In this document: positions 10,772 through 63,796 of the stretch, one piece after another | Layout of the letters: each line of letters begins with the position of its first letter | Position numbering within the stretch: the stretch's first letter is position 1 | Assembly (NCBI GenBank): GCA_964568885.1 | Contig: CAZMSF010000001.1 | Span: forward strand, 5,217-69,216 | Direction of reading: 5' to 3' | Source: an uncultured Gammaproteobacteria bacterium | GTDB lineage: Bacteria > Patescibacteriota > Microgenomatia > Levybacterales > GWA1-39-11 | Length of the DNA stretch: 64,000 bases | Program-made: the position numbers and the translations under genes | Notes under the pieces: model-generated | Databases searched by the model: none | Seen by the model: only the letters and a program-made list of their open reading frames with translations | Told to the model about the DNA's origin: nothing

Positions 10772-12097
10772 ATGCGTAAAAAAGATAGTATGGGTGTATA
10801 CATTCCAAAATTTATAAAAAAATTGCCATTCAAAGCGAAATTGATAGGTTCAATTGCGATAATTTTATTGGCTCTTTTTGCTGTATCAAATTTGAGCAAA
10901 AAGCAGTCATCCTTTTCGTACCAAACGGTGCAGGTTCTACGGGAAAGCATTATAGAAAGCGTTACCGAGAGCGGTAACGTAACGTCCAATAGTCAAACAA
11001 ATATCGGGTCTCCGACAAATGGTGTCATTTCAGAGGTTTTTGTAAGAAACGGGGACGAAGTTTCGGCAGGTCAACAACTTTTTAGTGTCCGTTCGACAGC
11101 AACTCCTCAAGAGCAGGCACAAGCGTATGCCAATTATTTATCCGCCCAGAATTCGTTGAATTCGGCGACCGCAAAACTCAACTCCCTCCAGTCTGCTCTT
11201 TTTAAAGCAAACCAGGCATTCATCAACGACCGCGGAGTTCAAAATCCTTCAGACCAGCAAAAAACTGACCCTAAGTACATTGAAGAGAATGCCGATTGGC
11301 TGCAAGCTGAGGCCGATTACAAAAATCAGCAAGGGGTTATTGCTGCCGCTCAGGCAAGCCATAACAGCGCTTCCCTTGCATATGCGGCAACACAAGATTC
11401 AACGGTGACTGCTCCGATATCAGGAACGGTCGCAAATTTCTCTCTTGAGGCAGGAAGCAATGTTACTGCAACGGGCACGACCTACAACAACAGCAACTCC
11501 TCGGCAAATTCCACCAGCCAGGGTACTCAGGTACTGGTTTTGGGTAATTTTTCTCAGCTTTCGATTAAAGCACCTATTAACGAAGTTGATATCTCAAAAA
11601 TTAAGACGGGGCAAAAGGCAACTGTGACGTTTGATGCATTTCCCGACCAAACGTTCGTCGGAAAGGTGACAAGCATTGACACTATTGGAGCAAACTCATC
11701 GGGTGTCGTCACATTCAATGCATATATTTCCCTCATTCTTCCCCCTGCCACAATCAGGCCGGGGATGAGTGCTACGGCCGTAATACAAATTGCCAGGCAT
11801 GACAATGTATTGTCCGTTCCAGCAGCTGCAATTCAGACCACAAACGGAACATCGACAGTGCAACGTATGAGGAATGGAAATATTGAGGTTGTTGAAGTTG
11901 AAACCGGTATCTCATCGGATACAAATACCGAAATTCTTTCAGGCATCTCGGAGGGAGATACCATCATAATAGGTTCGCAGTCTACGACGGCCCAAGGAGC
12001 AGCTTCCCCCTTCAGTGGACTCAATAGGGGTTTTGGAGGGTTTGGGGGTGGAGGAAATCTGAGAGTTGTCGGCGGCGGTACAAGGCAAGGACGGTAA
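10772..12097 (+). CDS. HlyD/MacA-type periplasmic adaptor (membrane fusion protein), Gly-rich C-terminus
   Basis: N-terminal TM, coiled-coil region, TAPISGTV lipoyl-like and beta-barrel segments. Confidence 0.7.
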   Translation: MRKKDSMGVYIPKFIKKLPFKAKLIGSIAIILLALFAVSNLSKKQSSFSYQTVQVLRESIIESVTESGNVTSNSQTNIGSPTNGVISEVFVRNGDEVSAGQQLFSVRSTATPQEQAQAYANYLSAQNSLNSATAKLNSLQSALFKANQAFINDRGVQNPSDQQKTDPKYIEENADWLQAEADYKNQQGVIAAAQASHNSASLAYAATQDSTVTAPISGTVANFSLEAGSNVTATGTTYNNSNSSANSTSQGTQVLVLGNFSQLSIKAPINEVDISKIKTGQKATVTFDAFPDQTFVGKVTSIDTIGANSSGVVTFNAYISLILPPATIRPGMSATAVIQIARHDNVLSVPAAAIQTTNGTSTVQRMRNGNIEVVEVETGISSDTNTEILSGISEGDTIIIGSQSTTAQGAASPFSGLNRGFGGFGGGGNLRVVGGGTRQGR

Positions 12098-12803
12098 TAT
12101 GGGCACCTCAACAATTATTAAGGTGAATCACCTCAATAAGCAGTACACTCTTGGAGATATTACAACCCGCGCATTAAGCGATGTCTCATTTGAAATAAAA
12201 AAGGGGGAATTCGTTGCAATTATGGGTCCATCGGGAAGCGGCAAATCTACTCTCATGCATATTCTGGGTGCGCTCGATATTCCCACATCCGGCAGCTATC
12301 TTTTGGACGGAAAGAATGTGGGACAACTCTCCGATGACGAGCTTTCCGAAATAAGGAACAAAAAAATTGGTTTTGTTTTTCAGGCCTTCAATCTTCTTCA
12401 AAGGACAACCGCTATAAAAAATGTCATGTTGCCCATGAGATACGCCGGTGTTCCATTGGAAGAACGGTACGAACGGGCAAAGAAATTCCTCTCAATGGTC
12501 GGACTTGCGGAACGGATGGAACACACCACCAACCAACTTTCGGGGGGGCAACAACAAAGGGTTGCAATTGCAAGAGGAATTTCCATGAACCCTGCTCTCC
12601 TTTTGGCGGACGAGCCGACAGGGAACATCGCATCAAGTCAAGCAGACGAGATAATGTCGATTTTTCGGAAACTCAATCAAAAAGAGGGACATACTATAGT
12701 AATGATTACCCATGAGGGTGATATTGCGGCACACGCGGGCCGAATAATCACGATAAAGGACGGAAAGATAATATCAGATGTAAAGAATAAAAAACCGCGA
12801 TGA
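12066..12803 (+). CDS. ABC transporter ATP-binding protein, MacB/LolD type
   Basis: Walker [23 protein letters not shown] signature, Walker B LLADEPTG. Confidence 0.85.
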
Positions 12804-14035
12804 AAATGACGAATGAAACGTTTGAGCTTTTGTCCGAAAGTTTTTCTACCCTGACAATCAATAAGATGCGCACGGGGCTTGCTATCCTTGGCATTGTAAT
12901 AGGCATAGGAAGTGTAATTGTACTTATCTCTCTGGGACAAGCAACGCAGCAGCAGGTTCAAAATCAAATACAGTCCCTTGGTGCAAATCTTTTGACGGTT
13001 AATCCCGGCTCTCAAAATTCGGGCGGAGTACGCGGGGCAGCGGGGGCAGCAACAACATTGACGAATGAGGACGCAAAAGCCATTCGGACCTCCCCCAATA
13101 TCACTGCAGTACAAACCGTTTCGCCCGAGATACAAAGAAGAGAACAGATTACCGCCGGACGGACCAATTCAAATATCCAAATCATCGGTGTTACCGATTC
13201 TTACACTGCAGTTCACAAATTAAGTATGGATACCGGTACATTTGTTACCGAAAATGACAACGTGTCGTTAGGAAAGGTAATTGTTCTTGGTCCGCAAGTT
13301 GCAACGGACTTATTCGGAGAGACGGCTGGCGCCGTCGGACAAACAGTAAGAATCAATGGGATTCCGTTCCGGGTCATTGGAGTGACAAAAAGCAAAGGCG
13401 GCTCCGGTTTTTTTAACCAGGACGATATCGGATTCATTCCCCTATCAACTGCCCAAAAAATTGTATTCGGGCAAGACAACCTTAGCTCAATTGCTCTCGA
13501 AGCAAAATCGTCTGAGGTTATGACTGATGCCCAAAACCAAGTCGGATATCTTCTTTTGTCCCGGCATAAGCTACAAAGTCCGCAAGATGCCGATTTTTCA
13601 ATTTTTTCCCAAGCAGATATTCTCAGCACTGCTTCTCAGGCAACCGGAACTTTCACAACTTTTCTGGCAGGAATTGCCGCAATTTCGCTTCTTGTCGGAG
13701 GAATTGGAATTATGAACATCATGCTTGTTACAGTTACCGAAAGGACGCGTGAGATTGGACTTCGAAAAGCATTAGGTGCCAAGAAAAAGACAATTGTAAC
13801 TCAGTTTCTCATTGAGTCGATTTTCCTGACATTCACCGGTGGCGTCATTGGAATCGCACTTGGAATTCTTATTTCTTATGGATATTCGGCAGCTACAGCT
13901 TCCTTGTTTGTGATATCACCCTACTCAATTCTTCTCGCATTTGTCGTTTCGGGCGGTATTGGAATCCTATTTGGTTGGTACCCGGCAAGAAAGGCTGCGA
14001 ATTTACAACCTATTGAAGCGCTGAGATATGAATAA
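12800..14035 (+). CDS. ABC transporter permease, MacB/FtsX type
   Basis: N-terminal TM, large periplasmic domain, C-terminal 3-TM FtsX domain; overlaps the ATPase gene. Confidence 0.8.
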   Translation: MKMTNETFELLSESFSTLTINKMRTGLAILGIVIGIGSVIVLISLGQATQQQVQNQIQSLGANLLTVNPGSQNSGGVRGAAGAATTLTNEDAKAIRTSPNITAVQTVSPEIQRREQITAGRTNSNIQIIGVTDSYTAVHKLSMDTGTFVTENDNVSLGKVIVLGPQVATDLFGETAGAVGQTVRINGIPFRVIGVTKSKGGSGFFNQDDIGFIPLSTAQKIVFGQDNLSSIALEAKSSEVMTDAQNQVGYLLLSRHKLQSPQDADFSIFSQADILSTASQATGTFTTFLAGIAAISLLVGGIGIMNIMLVTVTERTREIGLRKALGAKKKTIVTQFLIESIFLTFTGGVIGIALGILISYGYSAATASLFVISPYSILLAFVVSGGIGILFGWYPARKAANLQPIEALRYE

Positions 14036-14946: not shown

Positions 14947-15202
14947 CAGCAATCAGTTCTTTCTTTTCTTCGCGTGTTAGTTGTTTTAACGAATATTCAC
15001 GTTTTAAGGCTCTAGATGCACCTTTCACTTTTTCAAAATACACAAGAAAAACCGGTCGTCTTGAACGGGTATATTTGGCTCCGCCGTTGATAAGTCCGTT
15101 ATGCGCACTTAACCGCATGGGTATGTTTTTTGTTTTACCGATGTAAAATGTATTGTCCGAGCATTCCAGAATATAGACGTAGAAATGCGAATCATTTACC
15201 AT
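14921..15202 (-). CDS. GIY-YIG nuclease family protein (UPF0213/YhbQ-like)
   Basis: FYVYILECSDNTFYIGKT...R...E...N motif set of the GIY-YIG domain. Confidence 0.75.
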   Translation of the reverse strand: MVNDSHFYVYILECSDNTFYIGKTKNIPMRLSAHNGLINGGAKYTRSRRPVFLVYFEKVKGASRALKREYSLKQLTREEKKELIAANNRVVLS

Positions 15203-15276
15203 TTGCTATTTTTTCCTTACAATACAACTATTATTAAGTCTCTTTTAAGCTATTTCATTTAAACTACATACAGTAT

Positions 15277-15786
15277 ATGAGAAAGTATCTTCAAATAACA
15301 ATTGTCTTGGGAGCCTTTTTTTTGCTTGTTTTTGCCAAAAATTTAAAGGGAAGCGACGATGAGGTAAAAATTGTCGGCAACAAGCAAGTTCTTCCTTCCC
15401 CAACTCAGGAGACATCTCCGCCTGCTACGCCAAATCCGCAAGAAACAGGTGCTCCGATAATAGCAACTGCTACTCCGCTACCCACCGTGAAAGTTGCGGG
15501 AAAATACAAAGACGGAACATACGACGGAACCATCGAGGACGCATTTTACGGAAATCTACAAGTACAGGCCGTCATTAAAGACGGGAAACTAGCCGACGTA
15601 TTGCCTCTTTTATATCCAAATGATAATAGAACCTCAATTTCTATAAATACCCAGGCAATCCCTATGCTACGAGATGAAGCTGTAAAAGCCCAAAGTGCGC
15701 AGGTTGATATTATAAGCGGAGCATCAGACTCAAGCCCCGCTTTTTCGCGTTCTCTAGCGTCTGCCTTAAAGAAGGCTCAAAACTAA
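15277..15786 (+). CDS. Secreted FMN-binding domain protein (flavinylation substrate), P/T-rich linker
   Basis: Signal peptide; C-terminal FMN_bind-like region with DIISGASDSS ([S/T]GA[S/T] flavinylation motif). Confidence 0.6.
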   Translation: MRKYLQITIVLGAFFLLVFAKNLKGSDDEVKIVGNKQVLPSPTQETSPPATPNPQETGAPIIATATPLPTVKVAGKYKDGTYDGTIEDAFYGNLQVQAVIKDGKLADVLPLLYPNDNRTSISINTQAIPMLRDEAVKAQSAQVDIISGASDSSPAFSRSLASALKKAQN

Positions 15787-15790
15787 CACT

Positions 15791-16528
15791 ATGAAGATTA
15801 CCGAAGGAATTATGGGCATGAGTGTCGCAATTGAAGTTCTTGATACAACTGTTAAGAGCACGGACATTGATGAAGTGCTTGACTATTTCCATTCTATCGA
15901 TGAAACCTTCAGTACATATAAAAAAACCAGCGAAATCTCACGCATAAACAAAAAACTTCTAAAGCTCGAAGACGCAAGCCCGGAGGTTAAGAAAGTGTTG
16001 AAATTGTGCGATGAAACAAAACTTATGACGAAGGGGTATTTCGATATTTCAGTTGAGGGGATTATCGACCCTTCCGGGCTTGTAAAGGGGTATGCTATAT
16101 CTGAGGGGTCAAAACTATTGATAAAAAAAGGGTATAAAAATTTTTATGTTGAGATAGGGGGCGATATTGATATCCGTGGCCTTAAAAATGGCATGAAATG
16201 GAAAGTAGGGATAAGAAATCCGCTCAAAACGTTCGAAAACGCGAGGGTTCTTTATCTCAGCGACAGAGGGATTGCAACCTCCGGAACCTACGAACGCGGT
16301 ATGCATATCTACAATCCGATAAAGAAAAAGCTTGCCAACGAGTTATCAAGCGTGACCGTGGTTGCAAATAACGTTTATGAAGCAGATAGGTTCGCAACTG
16401 CAGTGTATGCGATGGGCGAAAAGGGAATTGACTTTTTGGAAGAAAAAGAAGATCTGGAAGGATATGCCATTACAAAAGACGGTAAAGAGCTTGTTACGAG
16501 CGGTTTTACGGCGTATCTTTCTCCCTAA
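15791..16528 (+). CDS. apbE: FAD:protein FMN transferase ApbE
   Basis: ApbE family blocks (GYFDISVEG...GLVKGYA..., GGDIDIRG, SGTYERG). Confidence 0.75.
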   Translation: MKITEGIMGMSVAIEVLDTTVKSTDIDEVLDYFHSIDETFSTYKKTSEISRINKKLLKLEDASPEVKKVLKLCDETKLMTKGYFDISVEGIIDPSGLVKGYAISEGSKLLIKKGYKNFYVEIGGDIDIRGLKNGMKWKVGIRNPLKTFENARVLYLSDRGIATSGTYERGMHIYNPIKKKLANELSSVTVVANNVYEADRFATAVYAMGEKGIDFLEEKEDLEGYAITKDGKELVTSGFTAYLSP

Positions 16529-16531
16529 ATT

Positions 16532-18055
16532 ATGATTATAGACAAACTTCTTAATAAGATTACTATGTACAGGTTGACCCTGTACTACCTGATTGCGCTC
16601 GTAATTTACGCTATGATTACGGGTTTTTTCGGACTTACATTATATGGTTCCGTCGACATTTTACTTTCTTCAGTCATCGTTCTGTCTGTATGCTTCATCT
16701 CGAACTGGATTTTTGCAAAACTTTTTAAGGCGGTAACGAATGTCGAAAGTGTCTTTATTACCGCTCTTATTATCATTCTTATTTTTCCGATGAAGTTCCC
16801 TCACCAAGCCGTCGGTCTTATCGGCGTGTCACTTCTTGCGATGGGGTCAAAGTATCTTCTCACTGTTGAAAAAAGACACCTTTTCAATCCTGCTGCGGTT
16901 GGGGTTGCAATGATGTCGCTTCTCTCGGCCGAGCATTCGGCAACATGGTGGGTTGGAACGCCTCTTCTTATTGTTCCTACCCTCATCGGTGGGTTGCTTA
17001 TAGTACGAAAGGTACAACGGATGCGGATGGCAGTGGTGTTTTTGGTTACTTACTTTGTGTTTGCAGCGGGAGCTGCCCTTCTTCATTCAAACCCCATATT
17101 ATCCCTGTGGCAAAGAGGCGCGTTTTCATCAGCGCTTTTCTTCTTTACTTTCGTGATGCTTACAGAACCGCTTACCTCCCCTTCTACAAAAAAAATGCGA
17201 ACTTGGTATGCAATTATCGTCGCTGCATTATATTCAACCCCAATAGTACGACTCGGTGGTCTCGTTTTTACACCCGAAATGGCGCTTGTGGTCGGGAACA
17301 TATTCTCATACGTAGTCAATCCGAAGTATAGACTCGAACTTCCATTGATAAAGAAAACTCAATTGTCGCCGGATACGTTTCTTTTCGACTTTGGTCTGGT
17401 GAAAGGGTTCAAATTCTTGCCCGGTCAATACATGGAATGGACCTTGCCTCACTCAAATGCCGACAGCAGAGGAAACCGTAGATACTTCAGCCTGGCGAAC
17501 TCTCCCCATGAAGGCATCTCAATCGCGGTCAAATTCTATTCACCTTCAAGCACTTATAAAAGAGCTTTACTTTCTCTTCAGCCGGGACAAAAAATTGTTT
17601 CATCAAGCCTTTCCGGTGATTTTGTAATGCCCACCACAAGAAATACCCCATTGGTCTTTATAGCAGGAGGTGTCGGAATCGCACCATTTCGAAGTATCAT
17701 TGAGGACATCGTTGAAAAGAAAGAACAAGTCAATATCACCGTACTTTTTGCAAACAAAAGGAAAGAAGACATCCTGTTTCTTGACACCTTGGAAAAAGCC
17801 CGAGCATTTGGAGTAAACACTTTCTATATACTTACCGACAAAACTGCAATTCCTGCGGGTTGGCAAGGCATCTCAGGACATGTTACGCCGGAAATAGTAA
17901 AAACTTCTATTCCCGACTACATCAAGCGGAAGTTTTATGTTTCGGGACCTCAATTGATGGTACAAAACTTTGAGAAAATTCTCTTATCAACCGGTGTTTT
18001 AAAGAAAAACATCAAAGTTGATTTCTTTCCCGGTTATCAGGAAACCTCTGCCTAG
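16532..18055 (+). CDS. Membrane oxidoreductase: RnfD/NqrB-like polytopic N-domain fused to an FNR-like FAD/NAD(P)-binding domain
   Basis: HLFNPAAVG (NqrB/RnfD-like) in 8-TM region; C-terminal RYFSLANSP (RxYS FAD site) and GGVGIAPF NAD(P) site. Confidence 0.55.
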   Translation: MIIDKLLNKITMYRLTLYYLIALVIYAMITGFFGLTLYGSVDILLSSVIVLSVCFISNWIFAKLFKAVTNVESVFITALIIILIFPMKFPHQAVGLIGVSLLAMGSKYLLTVEKRHLFNPAAVGVAMMSLLSAEHSATWWVGTPLLIVPTLIGGLLIVRKVQRMRMAVVFLVTYFVFAAGAALLHSNPILSLWQRGAFSSALFFFTFVMLTEPLTSPSTKKMRTWYAIIVAALYSTPIVRLGGLVFTPEMALVVGNIFSYVVNPKYRLELPLIKKTQLSPDTFLFDFGLVKGFKFLPGQYMEWTLPHSNADSRGNRRYFSLANSPHEGISIAVKFYSPSSTYKRALLSLQPGQKIVSSSLSGDFVMPTTRNTPLVFIAGGVGIAPFRSIIEDIVEKKEQVNITVLFANKRKEDILFLDTLEKARAFGVNTFYILTDKTAIPAGWQGISGHVTPEIVKTSIPDYIKRKFYVSGPQLMVQNFEKILLSTGVLKKNIKVDFFPGYQETSA

Positions 18056-18111: not shown

Positions 18112-18396
18112 ATGGCTACACAGCAAGAACCTAAACATTCAAACCCTTGTACCCGGTGCGGAAAAGAGCGCATTGAGGGCAAAAAATGGAAAGAGGAAAT
18201 AGCTACTTTTTTCGGGACCTCAACTATCATCCATACCGAGACAGTTTGCCCGGACAAGGAATGTCAAAAAATTGTCGAGCAAAAGCTTGAGGCTCTCAAG
18301 CAAAAATCCGATGAATTGAAAGAGGAAAAACAGAAAAAACTTGACGTTCTTGCTAATGCGCGGAAGCTGAAAGCCGCTCAAAACCTCAAAAATTAA
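18112..18396 (+). CDS. Small Cys-containing hypothetical protein (possible zinc ribbon)
   Basis: CTRCGK...CPDKEC spacing; K/E-rich C-terminal helix. Confidence 0.35.
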   Translation: MATQQEPKHSNPCTRCGKERIEGKKWKEEIATFFGTSTIIHTETVCPDKECQKIVEQKLEALKQKSDELKEEKQKKLDVLANARKLKAAQNLKN

Positions 18397-20415: not shown

Positions 20416-20535
20416 TCAGGTCTTTTGTATACATTATTCAGCGTGTGGGGTCAAGGGGGTCATGGAAATTCCCAAAAAAAACAGTTAGAATTAATCGAAT
20501 CAAACTGTCAACTTCAAAAAGACTGTCACTTCCGT

Positions 20536-22323
20536 ATGCAACACAGAATTATTTATTACATCCGTAGTTTTATTACCCCGGTTATTGTACTCGCAGGATT
20601 GCTTCTTTATTTGGCTTTCTCCTATCTGAATATTCACCTGCTTTTGTTCCCCTTGGCCATAGCAACAATTATTATCGGAAGTTATAAATTGGTCGTTGAG
20701 ACGTATGAAGACATACGAAGTGGAAAATTTGGGCTCGATTATATCGCAATTCTTGCTGTTATTGTTTCAGTTGCGACCGGAGAATACATTGTTGGAATAA
20801 TTCTTGCTCTTATGATCGCTTCCGGACGGAATCTTGAAGAATACGGTGCAAAGATGGCAAAAAGGTCCTTGACCGAACTTTCCGAGCGCATTCCTCATGA
20901 CGTCATGGTTGAAAAAGGAGCCACAAGCGAAAAAAAGGCGGTCAAAAATGTCACTGTAGGAGAAGTAATTATCATCAGAAAGGGAGAAGTTGTACCGCTT
21001 GACGGAGAGATAATATCCGAAGAAAGTCTTTTCGATGAACAATCTCTGACCGGAGAGGCTTTCCCTGTTGAAAAACTTCATGGTGATTTTATCCGCTCGG
21101 GTGTAATTAACGTAGGAACAATTGCACGCATTAAGGTTTTGAAAGAACAGAAGGACTCGAGCTATTCAAAGATTATAGAAATCGTTGAGAGAGCTCAAAG
21201 CGCAAAAGCTCCGCTTGTAAGGCTTGCCGATAAGTACAGTGTCTATTTTACAATTGTAACTTTTGTCATCGCATCGTTCTCCTTTATGCTCCATGGGACA
21301 TTAGAATCTATTCTTGCGGTTTTGGTCGTTGCTACCCCCTGCCCGTTAATTTTGGCTACTCCAATAGCTCTTCTTGGCGGAATGAACGCTCAGGCAAGAA
21401 GAAGGATAATTATAAAGCACTTATCAAGCCTTGAGTCTCTTTCCAGAGTCGATACGGTAGTATTTGATAAAACCGGGACCATTACGCTTGGTAAACCCAA
21501 GGTAAGCGAATTCAGACTGCATAATGGGGAACTGGAAAAAGAACGGGCTCTTGCGATTGCCGTTGCAATTGAGAGAAATTCTCTGCATCCTTTGGCAAGC
21601 GCGGTGGTTGAGTATGGAAAATCGGTCGCAAGAATTCCAGTCTTGAAAGTTAAGGAAACGATAGGAAAAGGCATTCAGGGAAGCATTGATGGTAAAGACT
21701 ATGTCCTCAAAAAAACAGAGATGGACACAGAGACTATGGAAATAGGATTGTATCAAAATGAAGTTCTTTTGGCGTCCTTCATATTTGAAGATGAAGTCAA
21801 AACCGAGTCACGAAGTATTATCGAAAAACTGAAGAATATGAAAATGAACCTTTTCATTTTTACGGGAGACAAGCTGCAGACAACCCAAAAATTAGTGGAA
21901 CGGCTTCAAATCGACATGAAAATACGGGCAGAGTTAAAACCGGAAGAAAAGCAAAAAGGAATTGAAGAACTGAAAAAAAGGGGAGCAATAGTTGCGATGG
22001 TCGGCGACGGCATCAACGACGCGCCTGCCTTAGCTTTATCAGACGTTGGGATGGTTTTTGCAAATGAGGAAAAAACTGCAGCCTCGGAAGCCTCGGACAT
22101 CGTACTTTTGGGAGGCAACTTCTCCTCCGTTCTCTATTCCCTTTTGAGCGCACGGCGGACAATATCAATTGCAAAACAAAGTATCGTGGCCGGAATCGGA
22201 ATGAGCGTGGTTTGTATGATACTTGCCTCATTCGGACTTATTTCTCCCATTGTCGGTGCTGTCATTCAGGAAGGAATTGATGTAGCGGTCATTCTCAACG
22301 CCCTTCGTGCAAGTAAGAGCTAG
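20536..22323 (+). CDS. Heavy-metal translocating P1B-type ATPase lacking an N-terminal metal-binding domain
   Basis: TM6 CPx (ATPCPL), DKTGTIT phosphorylation site, GDGINDAPAL hinge. Internal ATG at 20536 preferred over the 20425 start, which almost abuts the upstream opposite-strand gene. Confidence 0.8.
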   Translation: MQHRIIYYIRSFITPVIVLAGLLLYLAFSYLNIHLLLFPLAIATIIIGSYKLVVETYEDIRSGKFGLDYIAILAVIVSVATGEYIVGIILALMIASGRNLEEYGAKMAKRSLTELSERIPHDVMVEKGATSEKKAVKNVTVGEVIIIRKGEVVPLDGEIISEESLFDEQSLTGEAFPVEKLHGDFIRSGVINVGTIARIKVLKEQKDSSYSKIIEIVERAQSAKAPLVRLADKYSVYFTIVTFVIASFSFMLHGTLESILAVLVVATPCPLILATPIALLGGMNAQARRRIIIKHLSSLESLSRVDTVVFDKTGTITLGKPKVSEFRLHNGELEKERALAIAVAIERNSLHPLASAVVEYGKSVARIPVLKVKETIGKGIQGSIDGKDYVLKKTEMDTETMEIGLYQNEVLLASFIFEDEVKTESRSIIEKLKNMKMNLFIFTGDKLQTTQKLVERLQIDMKIRAELKPEEKQKGIEELKKRGAIVAMVGDGINDAPALALSDVGMVFANEEKTAASEASDIVLLGGNFSSVLYSLLSARRTISIAKQSIVAGIGMSVVCMILASFGLISPIVGAVIQEGIDVAVILNALRASKS

Positions 22324-33925: not shown

Positions 33926-35465
33926 GTTTCTTTAAAAGATGTGAAACCATAAGAATATTCAAGGTCGCGGTAAGTGTAATAACTAATAGTACGTAGTATT
34001 GAACCGGAGTAAGTATATTTTTGAATACATTATTGTATGTGAATGATTTAGAACCGGTATTGAGAAGGTAGAAATAATTTCTGTCAAACATATACCTCTC
34101 TTGAACGCCGGAGAGTTTTTCAAGGGCCAAAACTTCTACTTGCGGAGGATTAGCATTGGTAGTAATAGCACCCAAAGTATTTACAGCTATTGAATATACT
34201 CCAACGAGGAAAAATGCGATGTAAAACCAAGCGTTTTTATTGAATTTTTTGAATGCGAATGCAACCAGAATGGACAGAATTGCGTATGATGGAATAAGGT
34301 ACCTTGACCCAAAAGCCCAACCTCCCCATGGATCGCCCCACATTGAGTAAAGGACAACATTGGCGCAAATTATACTTATCAGAAGAACTAATTCTTTCTG
34401 CTTCTTCGACCATAAATAAATTGCTCCAAATATTCCAAAAAGGACAATCGGCGCATAAAATATTACCCCCCTGTCAGGGCTAATTGAATGGATATATAAC
34501 CCGTTAATGATATTTCGTGTTTTGAAAAAGGTCACCGCTTCTTTCTTAGTTATATTGTTCCCTTTTGAATCCAAGAGAAGGGATTTATCCTGCGTGGAAC
34601 TTGTATCCTTTACAACCTGTACGGCTTTCGTCGGAAGAGTTCCTGATAATTGAAACGGATTTCCGTAAGAAGAATTGTTGAACCATAAGAAGAACAACAC
34701 AGGTAAAGCAAATGAAACAATCGAGAGTAAAGAAAGAAACCTGAACTTCACCCGAACAACTGACTTTATTCTTTCAAGCCCAAACATTCTTATCACCGAA
34801 TAAATAAAAACCGGGAAAAAGAAGAATAAATTTGGGTAATCTAATGGTATGGATGCTGCGAAGAGAAATGAAACAACGATTCCTGCAATCCAGCTACGAA
34901 ATCTAAACAAGGCATAGAGCGCTAGAAGTATAAATAAAGTGGACAAATGGTGCTGATACAGACTGACTCCATATGAAAATGCCGGAGTTCCAAATACGAA
35001 TGCAAGTGCTGCAATGCAAGAAGCAATCTTTCCCGCACCAAGTCTTACTGCAATTTTTCCGATGAAAAACGCATTCAAAATTGCAAATACTGAAATAGTA
35101 AAGAACGTCCCCACCTGAGAAAGACCAATCACTTTCCCTAAAACATATCCGGGTATCAAAGTGAATGATAATAATGGAGCAAATAACGAAACGTATTTAC
35201 CCTTCAATACTCCTACATCGGGAGCTGCAAAATTACCAATGCTTTCGGTAAACTTAAAGGATTTATGCTCAACAATTGAGTACAGAAGTGCGTATCTTCC
35301 TCTCTCGGGAGACAATTCAAGCGGACCAGCTTCTTTCCAATTGTTTTTTTGCAAATCAATTTCAGTAGGATTTCCTAATACGCCACGGAATGTCATCACA
35401 TAAATTAGTGAGATAAGTGTAAAAAATAAATAAGGCAAGATTTTTTTAAACATACTAACTACCAA
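33918..35465 (-). CDS. Polytopic GT-C-like membrane glycosyltransferase (PMT_2/ArnT-like) candidate
   Basis: About 12 TM helices; conserved loop SPERGRYALLYSI typical of ArnT/PMT-family proteins. Confidence 0.45.
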   Translation of the reverse strand: MVVSMFKKILPYLFFTLISLIYVMTFRGVLGNPTEIDLQKNNWKEAGPLELSPERGRYALLYSIVEHKSFKFTESIGNFAAPDVGVLKGKYVSLFAPLLSFTLIPGYVLGKVIGLSQVGTFFTISVFAILNAFFIGKIAVRLGAGKIASCIAALAFVFGTPAFSYGVSLYQHHLSTLFILLALYALFRFRSWIAGIVVSFLFAASIPLDYPNLFFFFPVFIYSVIRMFGLERIKSVVRVKFRFLSLLSIVSFALPVLFFLWFNNSSYGNPFQLSGTLPTKAVQVVKDTSSTQDKSLLLDSKGNNITKKEAVTFFKTRNIINGLYIHSISPDRGVIFYAPIVLFGIFGAIYLWSKKQKELVLLISIICANVVLYSMWGDPWGGWAFGSRYLIPSYAILSILVAFAFKKFNKNAWFYIAFFLVGVYSIAVNTLGAITTNANPPQVEVLALEKLSGVQERYMFDRNYFYLLNTGSKSFTYNNVFKNILTPVQYYVLLVITLTATLNILMVSHLLKKHD

Positions 35466-36642
35466 TCAATGTTGAATAAAAGTCATTTATCTTCTCAGAA
35501 ACGCTTTGCCAAGAATTCTTAAGCCCAAACTCTCTGTTTGTTTCCTCCATTTTCTTAATTTTGGGTGTGTTCTTGTTTTTAAGAATATAATTAAGTTTAT
35601 CAGCAACGGACTTATAATTACGAGTCTCAACGCAATAACCGTTTATGTCGTTCTTTATGAGAAGCGGAAGGGCAGTATTGTTAGCAACCACACAAGGCAA
35701 ACCTTGACTTAATCCTTCATGGATGACGTTGCAATAACTTTCCCATAGGGCCATATGAACCATAAGCTGTGCGTGCTTAACTACATAGTACTTATCAATC
35801 CCCTTCAAAACCCCAATAAAGAGTACTCGTTCTTGCAATTTTAATGAGGAAATTAATTCTCGCAAATTCTTTATATAATTACCCTCTTCTTGGATGGGTC
35901 CAGCGATAATATATTTGACATCGGAAGGAAGGAGTGCTAAAGCCTTTATTGTTGTTTCATAGTTTTTGATTTTATAAACACGACCCATCTGAAAGATGTA
36001 TTTTCCGAAACTTTCAACTTTCTTCTTGATTTGACGGCTTGCAAGCCTATCAATATCCACATAAGCTTCGTCCTCAATACCATTGTCGATTACGCGTATT
36101 AAAGACGTTCTTACTCCCTTTTTAATCATTTCGTCCTTTTCCCATTCGGAAACCGCACGCACTCCATCAACAACCAAGTTAATAAGAATAGTCCCTAATG
36201 TGTAGTGATACGTTGACTTCACAATCTTTTCTATGAATGAGAAAATCCTCCATTCCGGATTAAATCCACCATGAGGCGTAATAGCCAATTTATAATTCTT
36301 TTTTCCAAACATCTTCGCAACTAGTGTTCTTCCCAAAATATGAAGATGCGGAAAAATATCGAAATTATGAAGAGTTACTATATCTGTAGTAGAATAATCA
36401 ATTTCAGGAAAAAATCCATACCATTTAAATGGATAACGCTTTACTCTAATTCCATTCATCAGTTCTTCTCTTGGAAGCCAGTTCTTTTTTAAATAGGTAT
36501 TGGTTGATGTATGCAGCGTGACGTCCCAACCCATTTCGACAAGTCGACGATAGGTCTCCATCACATTCACCTCTATTCCTGCCGTTACAGGAAAGAAATA
36601 TTTAACGATAATATCTACTTTTTTTTGTTTTCTTAGTTTCAT
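35455..36642 (-). CDS. Glycosyltransferase family 4 (GT-B, retaining)
   Basis: C-terminal E..G....EG.s.G.P.V motif (EGLSQGLPCVVANN). Confidence 0.75.
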   Translation of the reverse strand: MKLRKQKKVDIIVKYFFPVTAGIEVNVMETYRRLVEMGWDVTLHTSTNTYLKKNWLPREELMNGIRVKRYPFKWYGFFPEIDYSTTDIVTLHNFDIFPHLHILGRTLVAKMFGKKNYKLAITPHGGFNPEWRIFSFIEKIVKSTYHYTLGTILINLVVDGVRAVSEWEKDEMIKKGVRTSLIRVIDNGIEDEAYVDIDRLASRQIKKKVESFGKYIFQMGRVYKIKNYETTIKALALLPSDVKYIIAGPIQEEGNYIKNLRELISSLKLQERVLFIGVLKGIDKYYVVKHAQLMVHMALWESYCNVIHEGLSQGLPCVVANNTALPLLIKNDINGYCVETRNYKSVADKLNYILKNKNTPKIKKMEETNREFGLKNSWQSVSEKINDFYSTLIGS

Positions 36643-37430
36643 ATGGCAAGCGAAGGCAAGTACTTTTTAATAGTCCTTCTAAATATAATCGCATAAAAAC
36701 TTGTTAAGTTCTTGAATTCTGAGAATGCGTGTGTGCCATCAATTCCAATTCTCGGTATTGTAAGTTCTTTGGTTTTTTGAGAAATTAGGTTGTCATCCAT
36801 ACTGAAGGCCATTTTATAACCGGATTTTTTTACAACAGTAAGTATCTCCTTTGTATATCTTCCTTTCGGGTAAGCAAAATAATCAACTGAACATCCCAGC
36901 ACTTTCTCCAAATCTTGTTTTGACCCCGTTACTTCATAAGCAATATCTTCTCTACTGAGCTTATAAAAATCCGAGTGAGTTGCGCCGTGAGAACCAAAAA
37001 ACCACCCATCTCTTTGTAAAATTCGAATATCTTTAATTGACAAAAGTTCTTTGTGGTTATCAAGCTCTTTTCTATTGACGTCTCTGGCGTTTGAAAGCAA
37101 GAAAACCGTAGGCTTAATGTTCTGCCTATTTAGAAACTCTCTCACACTCATAATATCCTTATACCCATCATCGATCGTGAGAAGAACTAATGGTTTTTCT
37201 GCAAAAAAATTGGTTGATAGATACGACTCAAACTCGGGAGCAGATACAAATGTGTGAGTCTTTTTAAGTGCTAGAATTTGTTTTTTGAAACTGGAAGTTG
37301 TAGTGCTAAACTTCCAATTATCATTAGAAAAGCCGTGGTAACACAAAACAAACGCATTAACTTTTCTCAAGGTTAATTTCGATAACAAACCAAGTATTAT
37401 GTAAATTGTTTTTCGAAGTCTATTTTTCAT
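36639..37430 (-). CDS. Polysaccharide deacetylase (NodB domain)
   Basis: LLTIDDGYKD, GSHGATHSDF NodB motifs. Confidence 0.75.
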   Translation of the reverse strand: MKNRLRKTIYIILGLLSKLTLRKVNAFVLCYHGFSNDNWKFSTTTSSFKKQILALKKTHTFVSAPEFESYLSTNFFAEKPLVLLTIDDGYKDIMSVREFLNRQNIKPTVFLLSNARDVNRKELDNHKELLSIKDIRILQRDGWFFGSHGATHSDFYKLSREDIAYEVTGSKQDLEKVLGCSVDYFAYPKGRYTKEILTVVKKSGYKMAFSMDDNLISQKTKELTIPRIGIDGTHAFSEFKNLTSFYAIIFRRTIKKYLPSLAI

Positions 37431-37432
37431 AG

Positions 37433-38146
37433 TTATTTAATAGCTTTTACTGCAATTATGCACGGATAATTCGGGTCATTGAAGTCCAATTCCTTTTTCG
37501 AAAGTTCCTCAACTGCCATTCCAACCCAAAAACACTGTCCCGACAAAACATTTCCATATGACTTTACATCCAGAGTTCCCGATTTAAAGTATTTCGAAAA
37601 GATATATTTACATGATGTAACCGTGAATCTCCACATACTGTAATTAAGATCGAGAACTGGGCTTATTGACGAAACCGTAACCAGCAAAACTCCACCCGGT
37701 TTTAAAATACGATAGCACTCCCTAATTGCACTTTCATAATCATCTATCATTCCGAGTGTTTGAGTAACTATAAGGCAGTCATACGAATTGCTATCAATCG
37801 ACTTCAAGTTTCTCAAGTCATCATGAATATCGGCAAGTTTGTTTTTGGGATTATTGTCAAGAATGTCGCTTTTAGTCACTTTTAACTTTCCAAATTTCAA
37901 CGTGTAACTATTATCAACAATCTCAAGGCATTTCCCTTTAATATATTTCGAGTTTTCGCTTAAAAATTTCTCTATATAATACCTATCAATCGGAGTTCCC
38001 CTATCATACCCAAACTTTCGGCTCAGAGGCTTTGTCGTTCTTGTCCCCAAAAAATACCGAGAATTAGGAAAAATAAATTTCATAATTCTTGCTCTTATTG
38101 GACGAATGATATGTATTACTTGTTGATTCATACTAAATTCTGGCAA
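37433..38146 (-). CDS. Class I SAM-dependent methyltransferase
   Basis: Motif I CLEIVDNSY..G and post-I ILKPGGVLLV. Confidence 0.7.
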   Translation of the reverse strand: MPEFSMNQQVIHIIRPIRARIMKFIFPNSRYFLGTRTTKPLSRKFGYDRGTPIDRYYIEKFLSENSKYIKGKCLEIVDNSYTLKFGKLKVTKSDILDNNPKNKLADIHDDLRNLKSIDSNSYDCLIVTQTLGMIDDYESAIRECYRILKPGGVLLVTVSSISPVLDLNYSMWRFTVTSCKYIFSKYFKSGTLDVKSYGNVLSGQCFWVGMAVEELSKKELDFNDPNYPCIIAVKAIK

Positions 38147-39032
38147 TTGTTTTGGAGCTTGATACTCTCTCCCAATTTTCTTTTTCCCTTACAAAGAATG
38201 ATTGCGCCTTTATAATTAACAAGACAGAAAAGTACATAATTGTAGATATTGGGTCCGAAATTAAATTTTTTAAAATTGATTTAATAAGCACCCCTTTTCC
38301 CAACTTGTAACCCTCCGAGACCAGGTGCTTCCCAAATTCTTTCTTTAATAGTTCTTTTGAATTGTAAAAGCGTATACTTTGCTTCTTGTGATCCATGAAG
38401 TTGGTAGGAAGTCGAAATATCACACTCGTACTTTTTTGGAAATGATATTTAAACCCGTTCACCTTACAGTTGTAATAAGAAAAGGCATCTTCACCAATAC
38501 TTGTTGAAAATCGAAACGAGGAATAAAAACGTTTTGAAAACGCCCTGGCTACACCTCTGCATGTGTAGACATTGTCGCCATCGCGATAATTCTCGTACGC
38601 AACGTTCTTTATTTTTGTGCTAACGAATAATACTTTTTCAAAGAATGTTGACGGCTCTGCCTCGGATACCGAAGGAGAAACCAAATCAACCGAATTTTTT
38701 TGAATTGGCTGTATCATTTTGAAAAGAAAATTTTTATCCAGAATTCTCACGTCGGCGTTGATAAGGATTAATACATCGGAAGTTGCGTGTTCAAGAATAA
38801 GGTTTTGAGTAAACGCAAGTCCGCATCTTTTTTCATTTTTCCTTAAATTAACTCCTTTTTTGAATTCTTTAACTATTTTTTCCGTACTGTCTGTACTTCC
38901 GTCTGAAACAACTAATATCTCCCTAAGCAAGAACTTATCCTTTTTTTGCTTGAGCAAATCATTAAGAAGAAATCGTATATTGTCTTCTTCGTTAAATGCC
39001 GGTATTCCAATTATCAATGTAAGTTTTTTCAT
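38133..39032 (-). CDS. Glycosyltransferase family 2
   Basis: LIIGIPAFNEEDNI...VVSDGSTDST...INADV (DxD) GT-A motifs. Confidence 0.8.
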   Translation of the reverse strand: MKKLTLIIGIPAFNEEDNIRFLLNDLLKQKKDKFLLREILVVSDGSTDSTEKIVKEFKKGVNLRKNEKRCGLAFTQNLILEHATSDVLILINADVRILDKNFLFKMIQPIQKNSVDLVSPSVSEAEPSTFFEKVLFVSTKIKNVAYENYRDGDNVYTCRGVARAFSKRFYSSFRFSTSIGEDAFSYYNCKVNGFKYHFQKSTSVIFRLPTNFMDHKKQSIRFYNSKELLKKEFGKHLVSEGYKLGKGVLIKSILKNLISDPISTIMYFSVLLIIKAQSFFVREKENWERVSSSKTIARI

Positions 39033-39036
39033 AAAT

Positions 39037-41523
39037 TTAAAAAAGTGAGGTAACGCGGCTCATCAGATATCCAACGCGTTCAATTGAGAACATCCTTTGT
39101 CTGTTGGCAGTTTCATAATTTAAAACGTTAAGAAATGCTCCGGATGTCTCGTCCCAGCTGAAATTTTTTGCCCAGACGTAGGCACTTTTCGAATATGAAG
39201 CCCTCAATTTCTCGTTTCTCATAAGCTTTGTGATAGCATTTGCAAAGCCTTTAGTGTCTTTGACAGGCACAAGAAGACCTGTTTTTCCATGAATTATTGA
39301 GTCTTTCAGTCCATTCGTTTTTGATGCTACAACAGGTGTTTTACAGGCATTTGCCTCAAGGACTGTTATTCCCCACCCTTCAACGTCTGAAGGCTGCACG
39401 GCAACCCAGCTTTCCGAGAGGTGTTTTATTTTTTCTTTTTCGCTTACTTTTCCTAAAAAGCTAACATTATTAGTTAGCTCTGATTTGATAACGATGTCCT
39501 GCAAATCTCTTATAATTTCGCCTTCTCCAACAATAAGAAATCTTGCTTTTTTCACTTTTTCCAAAACGAGAGAGAACGCACGTATCGCAACATCAACATT
39601 TTTGTATGCCTTTAACCGTCCTAAATAAATTAGTTGTGGAACTGAAGACTTTTTAACTCTTCCGGTAACAATCTCAATGCCCGGATTAACAATTTGAATA
39701 TTTTCTTCCTTTGCAATTCCTGCTTTAATAATTTCCTTTTTTGAAGACTCAGAAACCGTTATGACGGTTTTATTGCGGTATACAAGTGGCATCAATTTTC
39801 CTTCGATGAATTTTCCTACATAAGATAATGGAAATCTCATATTTGTGACAAAAACCTCCTGGTGAACGTGATGAATAAGAAGAACAACAGGTTTTGTTGA
39901 GAAAAGCGGGCTAAAAAAGGGAATACCATTCTCAGAATCAACAATTACATCAAAGTTCCGTCTGAACCGAAGGATATAATACAGCGCAGCCCAAGGATAT
40001 ACTGTGTAAAATCCTCCGCGCCTTACTATGTTAACCCCGTCAATTATCTCGTTTCTGTTGTTTTGTCGGTCGTTTCCACAAAATATAGTCACAGAATTTC
40101 CTTCAGTTACCCATCTTTTAGCCAGTTCCTGGACATAGACTTCTGCTCCCCCCGCCCATATATGTTTTGTGTCACGCCAATTAAGAATAAGTATGTTGAG
40201 TCCTGCGGTAGCTTTTTTTCGCTCAAACGGCATAAAAGCCTCAAAAAGATCGCGCATATTCAGAGAAATTGTTGTATAGAACGACTCAAGAAAATGAAGG
40301 AGTCCGATAACCCCAAAACTTATAAGTCCCATAACAACCATTACATTTGAGATATGGCTCAAGGAGTCATGAAATACTAAAATCCCGCCAATTTCACAAA
40401 GCGCAAGTATAAAACTCGCAACAGGCAGAACGTGTTTACCCTTTATTTGGTCAAATGACACAATATTCGTCGCAACTGTAAATGCAACCATAGCGAAAGA
40501 ATAAAAAGGTAAGAGCTCAACGATAGCAGACGCTTTTTTGCCAAAAAGAAATGGCATCGTAAAGTGTCCAAAAGCACCTACCGCTAAAAAGGTAAGAAAA
40601 CTCGATACAAAAGAGGCTAATAGCAATTGGTAGAAAACCTTATGAGAATTTTTTCCGGAACCTTCTTTGTGGCTTACAATCGGCAGGATAAATTGTGCAA
40701 ATAGTGACCCCGCAAAAAACACCATTTTGCCTGAAAGTGACAAAAGTGCATACTGCCCCGCAGCATCCGGAGAGAGAAAATGCTTTGCAAGAATCACGTC
40801 CAATGACAAGTACATAACGGTTGAAATACGGGTCATTGCACTGGAAAGGTAGAATTTGAAAGGAAAGGCAAGAGCCTTCTTCCGGATCCGCATTTTAGGC
40901 CGTTTTACCCGGAGCGCAGCAATAACTATTAAAATGAAAGATAAAGCCGAGGAAAAAACTATTGAAAGATATGCATAGTCATCGTATCCACCCTTTACCA
41001 TCAAGAACGCAATGGCAAATTTAGCAATAGACTCAAAAAGGGTAACAAGAGCCAAATATCCGAATTTGAGATTGCCGGTTAAATAACCACCGTCAACAGA
41101 CGAAAGCAATGTTGTAGCCCAAATCGGTGTAATAAGAAGCACCGGCCAGACGCTACTAATATGGAAAAAGTGGGATATACCGACACTGGCAAGAATCCAG
41201 AGAAATGAAACAATAATTGATACTACAATTGCTTTTTTTCGAAGGTACTGCCAAAAAGCAGTTGCAGGCTTATTGTATTTGCCAAAGTGATACGCGCTCT
41301 TATAGACTACTGCTTTCCCCAACGCTCCAACGGGAATATCGGTAATCGAGAGAATTCCACCGATAAGGCTTATGAGTGCAAAATCCTCAAGACTTACTGA
41401 TCTTCCTAAAAATGCGTTGTAGAGGAGATTAAAGACGTTGGATAATGCAGTTGCAAGCAGAATAAGACCTGCCCTTTTCTTCAAAGCATTATCCGTTCCA
41501 TTAATTTTTCTAAATAAATTCAT
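39037..41523 (-). CDS. Fusion protein: Wzx-like polysaccharide flippase (N-terminal roughly 400 aa, about 12 TM) plus GT4 glycosyltransferase (C-terminal)
   Basis: MATE/Wzx-like TM region; C-terminal EGWGITVLEANACKTPVVAS GT4 motif. Confidence 0.65.
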   Translation of the reverse strand: MNLFRKINGTDNALKKRAGLILLATALSNVFNLLYNAFLGRSVSLEDFALISLIGGILSITDIPVGALGKAVVYKSAYHFGKYNKPATAFWQYLRKKAIVVSIIVSFLWILASVGISHFFHISSVWPVLLITPIWATTLLSSVDGGYLTGNLKFGYLALVTLFESIAKFAIAFLMVKGGYDDYAYLSIVFSSALSFILIVIAALRVKRPKMRIRKKALAFPFKFYLSSAMTRISTVMYLSLDVILAKHFLSPDAAGQYALLSLSGKMVFFAGSLFAQFILPIVSHKEGSGKNSHKVFYQLLLASFVSSFLTFLAVGAFGHFTMPFLFGKKASAIVELLPFYSFAMVAFTVATNIVSFDQIKGKHVLPVASFILALCEIGGILVFHDSLSHISNVMVVMGLISFGVIGLLHFLESFYTTISLNMRDLFEAFMPFERKKATAGLNILILNWRDTKHIWAGGAEVYVQELAKRWVTEGNSVTIFCGNDRQNNRNEIIDGVNIVRRGGFYTVYPWAALYYILRFRRNFDVIVDSENGIPFFSPLFSTKPVVLLIHHVHQEVFVTNMRFPLSYVGKFIEGKLMPLVYRNKTVITVSESSKKEIIKAGIAKEENIQIVNPGIEIVTGRVKKSSVPQLIYLGRLKAYKNVDVAIRAFSLVLEKVKKARFLIVGEGEIIRDLQDIVIKSELTNNVSFLGKVSEKEKIKHLSESWVAVQPSDVEGWGITVLEANACKTPVVASKTNGLKDSIIHGKTGLLVPVKDTKGFANAITKLMRNEKLRASYSKSAYVWAKNFSWDETSGAFLNVLNYETANRQRMFSIERVGYLMSRVTSLF

Positions 41524-63721: not shown

Positions 63722-63796
63722 GGGTGGAAGACGGGTGCCGCCCCCGCGACCTCAGGTTCCACAAACCTGCGCTCTACTGTTGAGCTACATCCACCG
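63722..63796 (-). tRNA. tRNA-His?: tRNA-His-like (anticodon GTG, G-1:C73) with atypical D-loop (no GG) and T-loop (GGCGGCA)
   Basis: Extra 5' G pairing with C73, acceptor GTGGATG/CTTCCAC (one mismatch), anticodon stem CAGGT/ACCTG with loop TTGTGGA, encoded CCA-like end. Confidence 0.45.

What the first reader, a model, noticed from the sequence alone, without database searches (positions are those of the whole stretch)
15277..18055. Three-gene extracytoplasmic flavinylation/electron-transfer module: secreted FMN-bind protein (SGAS motif), ApbE, and RnfD/NqrB-like membrane domain fused to an FNR-like reductase
Established: ApbE covalently attaches FMN to Ser/Thr in [S/T]GA[S/T] motifs of FMN_bind domains on the outer face of the membrane. 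Seen: gene 1 has a signal peptide, a P/T linker and DIISGASDSS. Gene 2 is ApbE. Gene 3 fuses an NqrB/RnfD-like polytopic domain (HLFNPAAVG) to a cytoplasmic FAD/NAD(P) FNR-like domain (RYFS, GGVGIAPF). Inference: a minimal NAD(P)H-to-membrane-to-extracellular-flavoprotein electron conduit, an extracellular reductase system. The RnfD-like/FNR fusion is not a standard Rnf/Nqr architecture and would be unusual in a reduced-genome organism.
Basis: partly seen in the sequence, partly recalled or inferred. Interest (0 to 1): 0.5.

Follow-up and report, generated by a model that had tools for sequence, protein, structure and literature searches.

The report
Known NQR/RNF-like flavin electron-transfer operon
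This is a real three-gene operon that probably carries electrons from NAD(P)H across the membrane to a flavin-carrying protein outside the cell, but the system was already described by bioinformatics in 2021 and 2024, so it is a correct but ordinary finding.

Summary

The architecture is not new. Meheust et al. 2021 (eLife) defined it as the "NQR/RNF-like system", found mainly in Actinobacteria and the candidate phyla radiation. Huang et al. 2024 modelled the complex and reported that the NqrB/RnfD flavinylation Thr is lost. The window comes from a Levybacteria-type Patescibacterium, a typical host.

I add two details. The NqrB riboflavin-pocket residues (N200/N203/T345/D346) correspond to invariant or near-invariant H116/N119/T211/E212. 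The operon's ApbE is a compact enzyme with no export signal in all 59 orthologues examined, although its only canonical substrate is predicted to face outward. That topological puzzle is unresolved and is not discussed in the papers I could read. No experimental work on this system was found.

The parts
15195..15223 (+). Promoter-like site (TTTACC-17-TACAAT) about 50 nt upstream of g1. Candidate operon promoter.
   Evidence: Consensus match only, 9 of 12 positions. Not evidence of function.
15277..15786 (+). g1: NqrC/RnfG-like FMN_bind subunit (169 aa). N-terminal signal-anchor (residues 1-23), P/T-rich linker, C-terminal FMN-binding domain (about residues 77-167).
15706..15726 (+). Flavinylation motif D144-I-I-S-G-A-S150. 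It matches D-x-x-[S/T]-G-A-[S/T], with Ser150 the predicted FMN attachment site.
   Evidence: Motif definition from PMC12052999. [ST]GA[ST] is conserved in 65 of 66 g1 sequences.
15791..16528 (+). g2: compact, leaderless ApbE flavin transferase (245 aa). The fold starts at residue 2. It has an internal deletion of about 45 aa relative to V. cholerae ApbE. Triad equivalents S164, H172 and D199 are invariant.
16532..17317 (+). g3 N-terminal membrane domain (residues 1-262): NqrB/RnfD fold, 10 membrane crossings, N-in and C-in.
16877..16894 (+). H116-L-F-N119-P-A motif. It aligns with NqrB N200-F-L-N203-P-A (riboflavin-binding residues). H116, N119 and P120 are invariant in 78 of 78 sequences.
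   Evidence: PMC9293633.
16937..16951 (+). S136-A-T-W-W140 outer-face loop, the remnant of the region that carries the covalent-FMN Thr in NqrB. It is not a canonical ApbE motif. W139 and W140 are invariant, and position 138 is S/T in 72% of sequences.
17162..17170 (+). T211-E212-P213. It aligns with NqrB T345-D346-P347 (riboflavin pocket). Position 212 is acidic in 78 of 78 sequences.
   Evidence: PMC9293633.
17333..18055 (+). g3 C-terminal cytoplasmic FNR-like domain (residues 268-507). FAD-binding beta-barrel (R317-Y-F-S320) plus NAD(P)H-binding Rossmann fold (G379-G-V-G-I-A-P385) and a C-terminal aromatic residue (Y502).

Best explanation
The locus is a member of the published 'NQR/RNF-like' flavinylation-associated electron-transfer system, here in a Levybacteria-type Patescibacterium.

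Proposed mechanism:
1. NAD(P)H reduces FAD in the cytoplasmic FNR-like domain of g3. The domain and its motifs are shown. The cofactor and activity are inferred from the family.
2. Electrons pass to a non-covalently bound flavin in the NqrB/RnfD-fold membrane domain. This is inferred from conservation of the residues that bind riboflavin in NqrB.
3. Electrons then reach the FMN covalently attached by ApbE (g2) to Ser150 of the membrane-anchored, outward-facing FMN_bind subunit g1. The motif and predicted topology are shown. The modification itself is inferred.
4. That FMN reduces an unidentified extracytosolic acceptor.

The flow is one-way and runs opposite to the FMN(B) -> riboflavin -> quinone leg of Na+-NQR. 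The covalent FMN site of NqrB/RnfD has been lost, and the FMN of g1 probably takes its place, as proposed by Huang et al. 2024.
For: Domain calls: Pfam; NCBIfam; g1 is FMN_bind.

Topology: 10 crossings, with 8 K+R on inside loops and 2 outside, which places the FNR domain in the cytoplasm. g1 has a conserved 'MKK' plus hydrophobic anchor, N-in and C-out.

Flavinylation motif: perfect in g1 and present in 65 of 66 g1 sequences.

Riboflavin-pocket equivalents H116, N119, T211 and E212 are invariant or near-invariant.

Operon and synteny: 4-nt and 3-nt gene gaps. g1-g2-g3 order in 55 of 71 loci and g2-g1-g3 in 3.

Literature: the definition and the same mechanistic proposal are in PMC8238504 and PMC10979944.
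Against: No experiment on any member of this system was found. Cofactor content, electron direction and acceptor are all inferred.

The operon's ApbE has no export signal in 59 of 59 orthologues. How an outward-facing g1 becomes flavinylated is therefore unexplained.

No conserved fourth gene points to an acceptor.

Confidence: 0.75

Rival explanations
1. Flavinylation and the FMN_bind domain are cytoplasmic. The module would then be a membrane-associated NAD(P)H-dependent flavoprotein whose flavins all face inward, served by a cytosolic ApbE as in the Klebsiella soluble fumarate reductase system. It would not be an extracytosolic conduit.
For: ApbE is leaderless in 59 of 59 orthologues, and 33 of them have fewer than 18 in-frame codons before the fold start. 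The AF2 model starts its first strand at residue 2. Cytosolic ApbEs are documented (PMC12052999).
Against: g1 carries a conserved N-terminal 'MKK' plus hydrophobic helix (TM-like at the strict threshold in 56 of 66). It is followed by long P/T/S-rich linkers typical of external tethers. The NqrB flavin site that g1 is modelled to approach lies on the outer face (PMC10979944). The loop replacing the NqrB FMN loop is predicted to be outside.
Confidence: 0.12
2. The module is an ion-translocating (Na+/H+) redox pump, a minimal relative of NQR/RNF. It would couple NAD(P)H oxidation to ion export through the NqrB/RnfD-like domain, rather than acting as a simple electron conduit.
For: The membrane domain has the NqrB/RnfD fold. 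NQR and RNF are ion pumps (established knowledge, summarised in PMC12174285 as listed).
Against: The NqrD/E (RnfA/E) pair, which carries the membrane Fe-S centre, is missing. NqrA/RnfC and RnfB are also absent from the locus and from 80 related loci. The pocket once proposed as the NqrB Na+ channel has been reassigned to riboflavin binding (PMC9293633).
Confidence: 0.08
3. Electrons flow inward. The module would take up electrons from an external donor through the g1 FMN and reduce NAD(P)+.
For: FNR-type domains are reversible in principle. RNF runs in both directions (established knowledge).
Against: The flow would run uphill from a flavin (about -200 mV) to NAD(P)+ (-320 mV), and no energy-coupling subunit is evident. 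No ion-coupling partners are present.
Confidence: 0.03

Closest known systems
NQR/RNF-like flavinylation-associated system (Meheust et al. 2021, eLife, PMC8238504; Huang et al. 2024, PMC10979944)
   Same: Identical architecture: a PF03116 + PF00175 fusion protein next to an FMN_bind (NqrC/RnfG-like) gene and apbE. It has the same reported hosts (CPR, Actinobacteria, Chloroflexi such as Ktedonobacter) and the same loss of the NqrB/RnfD flavinylation Thr. The proposed NAD(P)H -> extracytosolic FMN path is also the same.
   Different: Nothing architectural. Two details are added here. The NqrB riboflavin-pocket residues are mapped onto invariant or near-invariant residues of the fusion. The associated ApbE is uniformly a compact, leaderless form.
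Na+-NQR subunits NqrB, NqrC and NqrF (Vibrio cholerae; PDB 7xk3, 8a1t)
   Different: There is no NqrA, NqrD or NqrE. The NqrF-type 2Fe-2S domain is absent, and so is the covalent FMN site in the NqrB-like domain, where the loop is deleted. The B-like and F-like parts are fused into one chain. The electron path is one-way outward rather than semicircular to quinone, and there is no evidence of ion pumping.
RNF complex subunits RnfD and RnfG (PDB 8ahx, 7zc6)
   Different: RnfA, B, C and E are absent, and ferredoxin is not involved. An FNR-like domain replaces RnfC as the NAD(P)H site. The RnfD SGAT threonine is absent.
Listeria flavin-based extracellular electron transfer (Ndh2, EetA/B, PplA, FmnB, FmnA/RibU)
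   Same: It works similarly: cytosolic NADH electrons reach an ApbE-flavinylated, membrane-tethered FMN_bind protein outside a monoderm cell.
   Different: Listeria routes electrons through a quinone (DMK) and EetA/B, not an NqrB-like domain. Its ApbE (FmnB) is extracytosolic and depends on an FAD exporter (PMC9973259). Here ApbE has no export signal.
NOX / ferric reductase (FRE) family (for example SpNOX 8qq7, NOX5 5o0x)
   Different: The membrane domain is unrelated. NOX has six helices with two hemes, whereas this protein has an NqrB/RnfD fold that presumably holds flavin.

Membership tests
NQR/RNF-like system (operational definition of Meheust et al. 2021) | One protein with an N-terminal PF03116 (NqrB/RnfD) membrane domain and a C-terminal PF00175 (NAD_binding_1) domain | tested here: met
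   PF03116 at 43.8 bits (cutoff 27.7) and PF00175 at 57.7 bits (cutoff 22). Definition quoted.
NQR/RNF-like system (operational definition of Meheust et al. 2021) | Encoded within five genes of an ApbE or FMN_bind gene, at least one of which has a predicted export signal | tested here: met
   g1 and g2 lie immediately upstream. g1 has an N-terminal hydrophobic signal or anchor. SignalP itself was not run.
NqrB/RnfD family | Polytopic membrane fold of NqrB/RnfD | tested here: met
NqrB/RnfD family | Covalent FMN on a Thr in an S-G-A-T motif (NqrB T236, RnfD T187) | tested here: not met
   No [ST]GA[ST] motif in g3. NqrB residues 208-272 collapse to about 17 profile positions. The remnant S-A-E-H-S-A-T fails D-x-x-[ST]-G-A-[ST] at three positions. 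Agrees with PMC10979944.
NqrB/RnfD family | Riboflavin-pocket residues (NqrB N200, N203, T345, D346) | tested here: inconclusive
   The aligned positions are H116 (78/78), N119 (78/78), T211 (65/78) and E212 (75 E + 3 D). N203 is identical, D346 becomes E, and N200 becomes H. Flavin binding itself was not tested.
Canonical Rnf or Nqr complex | Presence of the other subunits (RnfA/B/C/E or NqrA/D/E/F) in the operon | tested here: not met
   The neighbours are a HlyD/MacB-type ABC system, a GIY-YIG protein, alanine racemase, a deacetylase and a P-type ATPase. No recurrent extra gene in 80 loci. Genes elsewhere in the genome could not be examined.
FMN_bind (PF04205; NqrC/RnfG/PplA type) | Match to the family model | tested here: met
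   The single sequence scores 19 bits, below the cutoff of 22. However, 20 of 20 orthologues match (best 7e-11), and the profile hits the solved FMN-binding domain 8p2a at 4.6e-20.
FMN_bind (PF04205; NqrC/RnfG/PplA type) | ApbE recognition motif D-x-x-[S/T]-G-A-[S/T] | tested here: met
   D144-I-I-S-G-A-S150. [ST]GA[ST] present in 65 of 66. Motif definition.
FMN_bind (PF04205; NqrC/RnfG/PplA type) | FMN is actually attached covalently | not testable with these tools
   Needs in-gel flavin fluorescence or mass spectrometry.
ApbE flavin transferase (PF02424) | Family model match, fold and catalytic residues (Ser-His-Asp; Mg/FAD site) | tested here: met
   147 bits. Foldseek TM 0.85-0.88 to FmnB, ApbE and Ftp. 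S164, H172, D199 and T203 are invariant in 47 sequences.
ApbE flavin transferase (PF02424) | N-terminal lipoprotein or secretion signal. This is typical of characterised ApbEs but is not strictly defining. | tested here: not met
   No hydrophobic segment in g2. 59 of 59 syntenic orthologues are leaderless even when read back to the previous in-frame stop. Of the top 120 homologues, 118 are 234-261 aa.
FNR-like reductase (FAD_binding_6 + NAD_binding_1) | Two-domain fold with R-x-[YF]-[ST] and G-G-x-G-x-x-P motifs | tested here: met

The most novel reading that the evidence does not exclude
In this system the FMN_bind subunit is flavinylated in the cytoplasm, by a dedicated compact ApbE with no export signal, before or during its Sec-dependent export. 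ApbE needs only a 7-residue linear motif, and here the motif sits 20 residues from the C-terminus. This route would remove any need for an FAD exporter in minimal-genome bacteria. It would also mean that surveys which require a signal peptide on ApbE undercount flavinylation in the candidate phyla radiation.
Probability: 0.3. Interest if true: 0.55.

Novelty: already known. Interest (0 to 1): 0.25.

Why it matters
Patescibacteria lack conventional respiratory chains. A self-contained NAD(P)H-to-outside electron conduit could therefore be one of their few ways to re-oxidise NAD(P)H, reduce iron, or exchange electrons with hosts. That idea is already in the literature, so this locus adds only one more example. 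The residual value lies in two testable details. First, the NqrB riboflavin pocket is conserved, which suggests what carries electrons across the membrane. Second, the ApbE is uniformly leaderless, which raises the question of where flavinylation happens and suggests that earlier surveys may have undercounted this system in the CPR. The family is abundant: at least 587 species genomes here, against 127 clusters reported in 2021.

Tried and rejected
- A single-sequence PDB search with g3 found only FNR-type chains, with no hit to the membrane domain. A family profile was needed.
A1 worked.
- The NQR/RNF-like sheet of Meheust's supplementary table is truncated in the held copy, so their signal-peptide calls for ApbE could not be read.
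- Covalent flavinylation of g3 at T138 ('SATWW') is rejected. The motif fails at three positions, and residue 138 is S/T in only 72% of sequences.
- Tat export of a pre-folded, pre-flavinylated g1 is rejected. There is no twin-arginine motif in any of 66 sequences.
- Export of ApbE by frameshift or readthrough fusion to g1 is rejected. The g1-to-g2 frame offsets are mixed (9, 15 and 31 of 55).
- A miscalled ApbE start is rejected. In-frame upstream sequence is too short or overlaps g1, and has no hydrophobic core.
- No conserved fourth gene or terminal reductase was found. The best recurrent family is a generic ABC ATPase in 14 of 80 loci.
- There is no second copy of the module in the window.
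- There is no riboswitch or other Rfam element near the operon.
Full report
OBSERVATION. They are separated by 4 and 3 nt, and a promoter-like site lies about 50 nt upstream of g1. Pfam gives ApbE for g2 (147 bits). For g3 it gives NQR2_RnfD_RnfE (43.8 bits, cutoff 27.7), FAD_binding_6 (22.0 bits, cutoff 21.1) and NAD_binding_1 (57.7 bits). For g1 it gives FMN_bind just below threshold (19 bits, cutoff 22).

g1 IS AN FMN_bind PROTEIN. I extracted 65 syntenic orthologues from related loci. All 20 that I scanned hit PF04205 (best 7e-11). The family profile hits the solved flavinylated FMN-binding domain 8p2a at E 4.6e-20, with the SGAT site aligned. The ApbE recognition motif is D-x-x-[S/T]-G-A-[S/T] (PMC12052999), and g1 has D144-I-I-S-G-A-S150. 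[ST]GA[ST] is present in 65 of 66 sequences: SGAT 37, SGAS 24, TGAS 2, TGAT 2, and one SQAT. The N-terminus is a conserved 'MKK' plus hydrophobic helix followed by a long P/T/S-rich linker. By the positive-inside rule this is N-in and C-out, as in NqrC/RnfG.

g2 IS A COMPLETE BUT COMPACT ApbE. It aligns with V. cholerae ApbE from the first strand of the mature fold and has an internal deletion of about 45 aa. It keeps ATSGTY (S164), H172 and EADRFAT (D199, T203), and these residues are invariant in 47 homologues. The AF2 model (pLDDT 94.5) superposes on FmnB, ApbE and Ftp at TM 0.85-0.88, and its first beta-strand begins at residue 2.

DISTRIBUTION AND SYNTENY. The membrane domain has 1,555 relatives among representatives clustered at 50% identity (241 at E <= 1e-30). 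Of the 149 representatives stored from that search, 103 are 450 aa or longer, which is the length of the fusion. Among the best 80 loci, about 34 carry Patescibacteria lineage names (Levy-, Microgenomates, Saccharibacteria, Paceibacteria, Peregrinibacteria, WWE3 and others), 13 are Chloroflexota, and there are also Thermoleophilia and Thermoanaerobaculia. The nearest is a Levyibacteriota MAG at 93% identity. The window's exact g3 sequence occurs in metagenome assemblies SRR6837583, SRR6837555 and ERZ27282949. Of 71 loci with enough upstream sequence, 55 are g1-g2-g3, 3 are g2-g1-g3, 7 have g1-g3 with no nearby ApbE, and 6 have neither gene. No other gene family recurs next to the module. It is therefore a self-contained unit, and the genomic context gives no clue to its acceptor.

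COMPARISON WITH WHAT IS KNOWN. This is the 'NQR/RNF-like system' of Meheust et al. 2021. [quoted passage not shown] Huang et al. 2024 modelled the Ktedonobacter complex with AlphaFold-Multimer. [quoted passage not shown] They proposed that the FMN of the NqrC-like subunit samples the non-covalent flavin site of the NqrB-like subunit (PMC10979944). My tests agree. g3 has no [ST]GA[ST] motif. NqrB residues 208-272, which hold T236, collapse to about 17 profile positions. The remnant S-A-E-H-S-A-T138-W-W fails the motif at three positions. I found no experimental study of the system.

ADDED DETAIL 1: THE INTRAMEMBRANE RELAY. NqrB N200, N203, T345 and D346 bind riboflavin, and double mutants lose the cofactor (PMC9293633). 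In the HMM alignment, NqrB N200-F-L-N203-P-A aligns with g3 H116-L-F-N119-P-A, and NqrB M-A-T345-D346-P aligns with g3 M209-L-T211-E212-P. Across 78 diverse family members, H116, N119, P120, M209 and P213 are invariant, position 212 is always acidic, and T211 is present in 65 of 78. I infer that a non-covalent flavin occupies this pocket and bridges the cytoplasmic FAD and the outer FMN. The path is the NqrB leg (FMN -> riboflavin -> acceptor) run in reverse.

ADDED DETAIL 2: AN UNEXPLAINED TOPOLOGY. Characterised ApbEs that serve extracytosolic targets are lipoproteins, and a periplasmic location was essential in Salmonella. Cytosolic ApbEs are known, but for soluble cytosolic targets (PMC12052999). 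Here g2 has no hydrophobic segment. Of its top 120 homologues, 118 are 234-261 aa. In 59 of 59 syntenic orthologues there is no 15-residue hydrophobic core anywhere between the previous in-frame stop and the fold start, and 33 of them have fewer than 18 codons available. Its only canonical substrate, g1, is nevertheless predicted to face outward. I excluded three explanations: Tat export (no RR motif), recoding fusion of g2 to g1 (frame offsets 9, 15 and 31 of 55) and start-codon miscalls. Two options remain. One is cytoplasmic flavinylation of the still-unfolded C-terminal motif before Sec export. This is plausible because a 7-residue tag is enough for ApbE, but it is unproven, and the Salmonella result argues against it as a general route. 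The other is an inward-facing flavin domain (rival 1). I could not model the complex or run a signal-peptide predictor, so this stays open.

VERDICT. This is a real, correctly read operon and a member of a system already described in print, in one of its typical hosts. Mechanistic confidence is moderate (0.75) because nothing has been tested experimentally. Interest is low (0.25). The leaderless-ApbE puzzle is the only part that might reward follow-up.

Noticed in passing
window 15791-16528; L001-L080 ApbE orthologues: The ApbE of this system is a compact form of about 245 aa with no export signal in 59 of 59 syntenic orthologues across Patescibacteria, Chloroflexota and Thermoleophilia. Its only canonical substrate is nevertheless predicted to be extracytosolic. 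The papers I read do not discuss this.
   Followed up: partly
L008 and L054 (contigs DAHWUP010000002/6); L034 and L053 (contigs DAIDHK010000005/3): Two Levyibacteriota MAGs each carry two loci with the fusion gene. In both MAGs, one locus (L054, L034) has g1-g3 without an adjacent ApbE. The two modules may share one ApbE.
   Followed up: partly
window 20425-22323 (+): A P-type ATPase (E1-E2_ATPase + Hydrolase) whose transmembrane metal motif reads A-T-P-C-P-L. No N-terminal heavy-metal-binding domain was detected by Pfam. It lies 2.3 kb downstream of the module, with two minus-strand genes in between. A link to metal reduction is speculative.
   Followed up: no
window 10772-14035 (+): A HlyD-like adaptor, an ABC ATPase and a MacB_PCD/FtsX permease (a MacAB-type tripartite efflux set) lie upstream of the module. 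This is notable in a presumably single-membrane Patescibacterium. ABC ATPases recur near the module in only 14 of 80 loci.
   Followed up: no
window 63723-63794 (-): Rfam finds a seventh tRNA (48.8 bits) that ARAGORN did not report.
   Followed up: no
window 34001-40000: G+C drops to 0.35-0.37, against 0.40-0.45 in the rest of the window. This could be an acquired or otherwise atypical segment.
   Followed up: no
record titles (for example L002, L011, L014, L015): About 18 of the 80 loci come from MAGs titled 'uncultured Gammaproteobacteria bacterium', yet they carry loci 45-61% identical to the Levybacteria protein and in the same synteny. The taxonomic label is probably a placeholder or a mis-assignment.
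   Followed up: no
window 18112-18396 (+): A 94-aa Cys-rich ORF (CxxC ... CPDKEC, then a Lys/Glu-rich tail) lies directly downstream of g3. It is present in the closest contigs (L081-L083) but is not conserved across the wider family, and it has no Pfam hit.
   Followed up: partly
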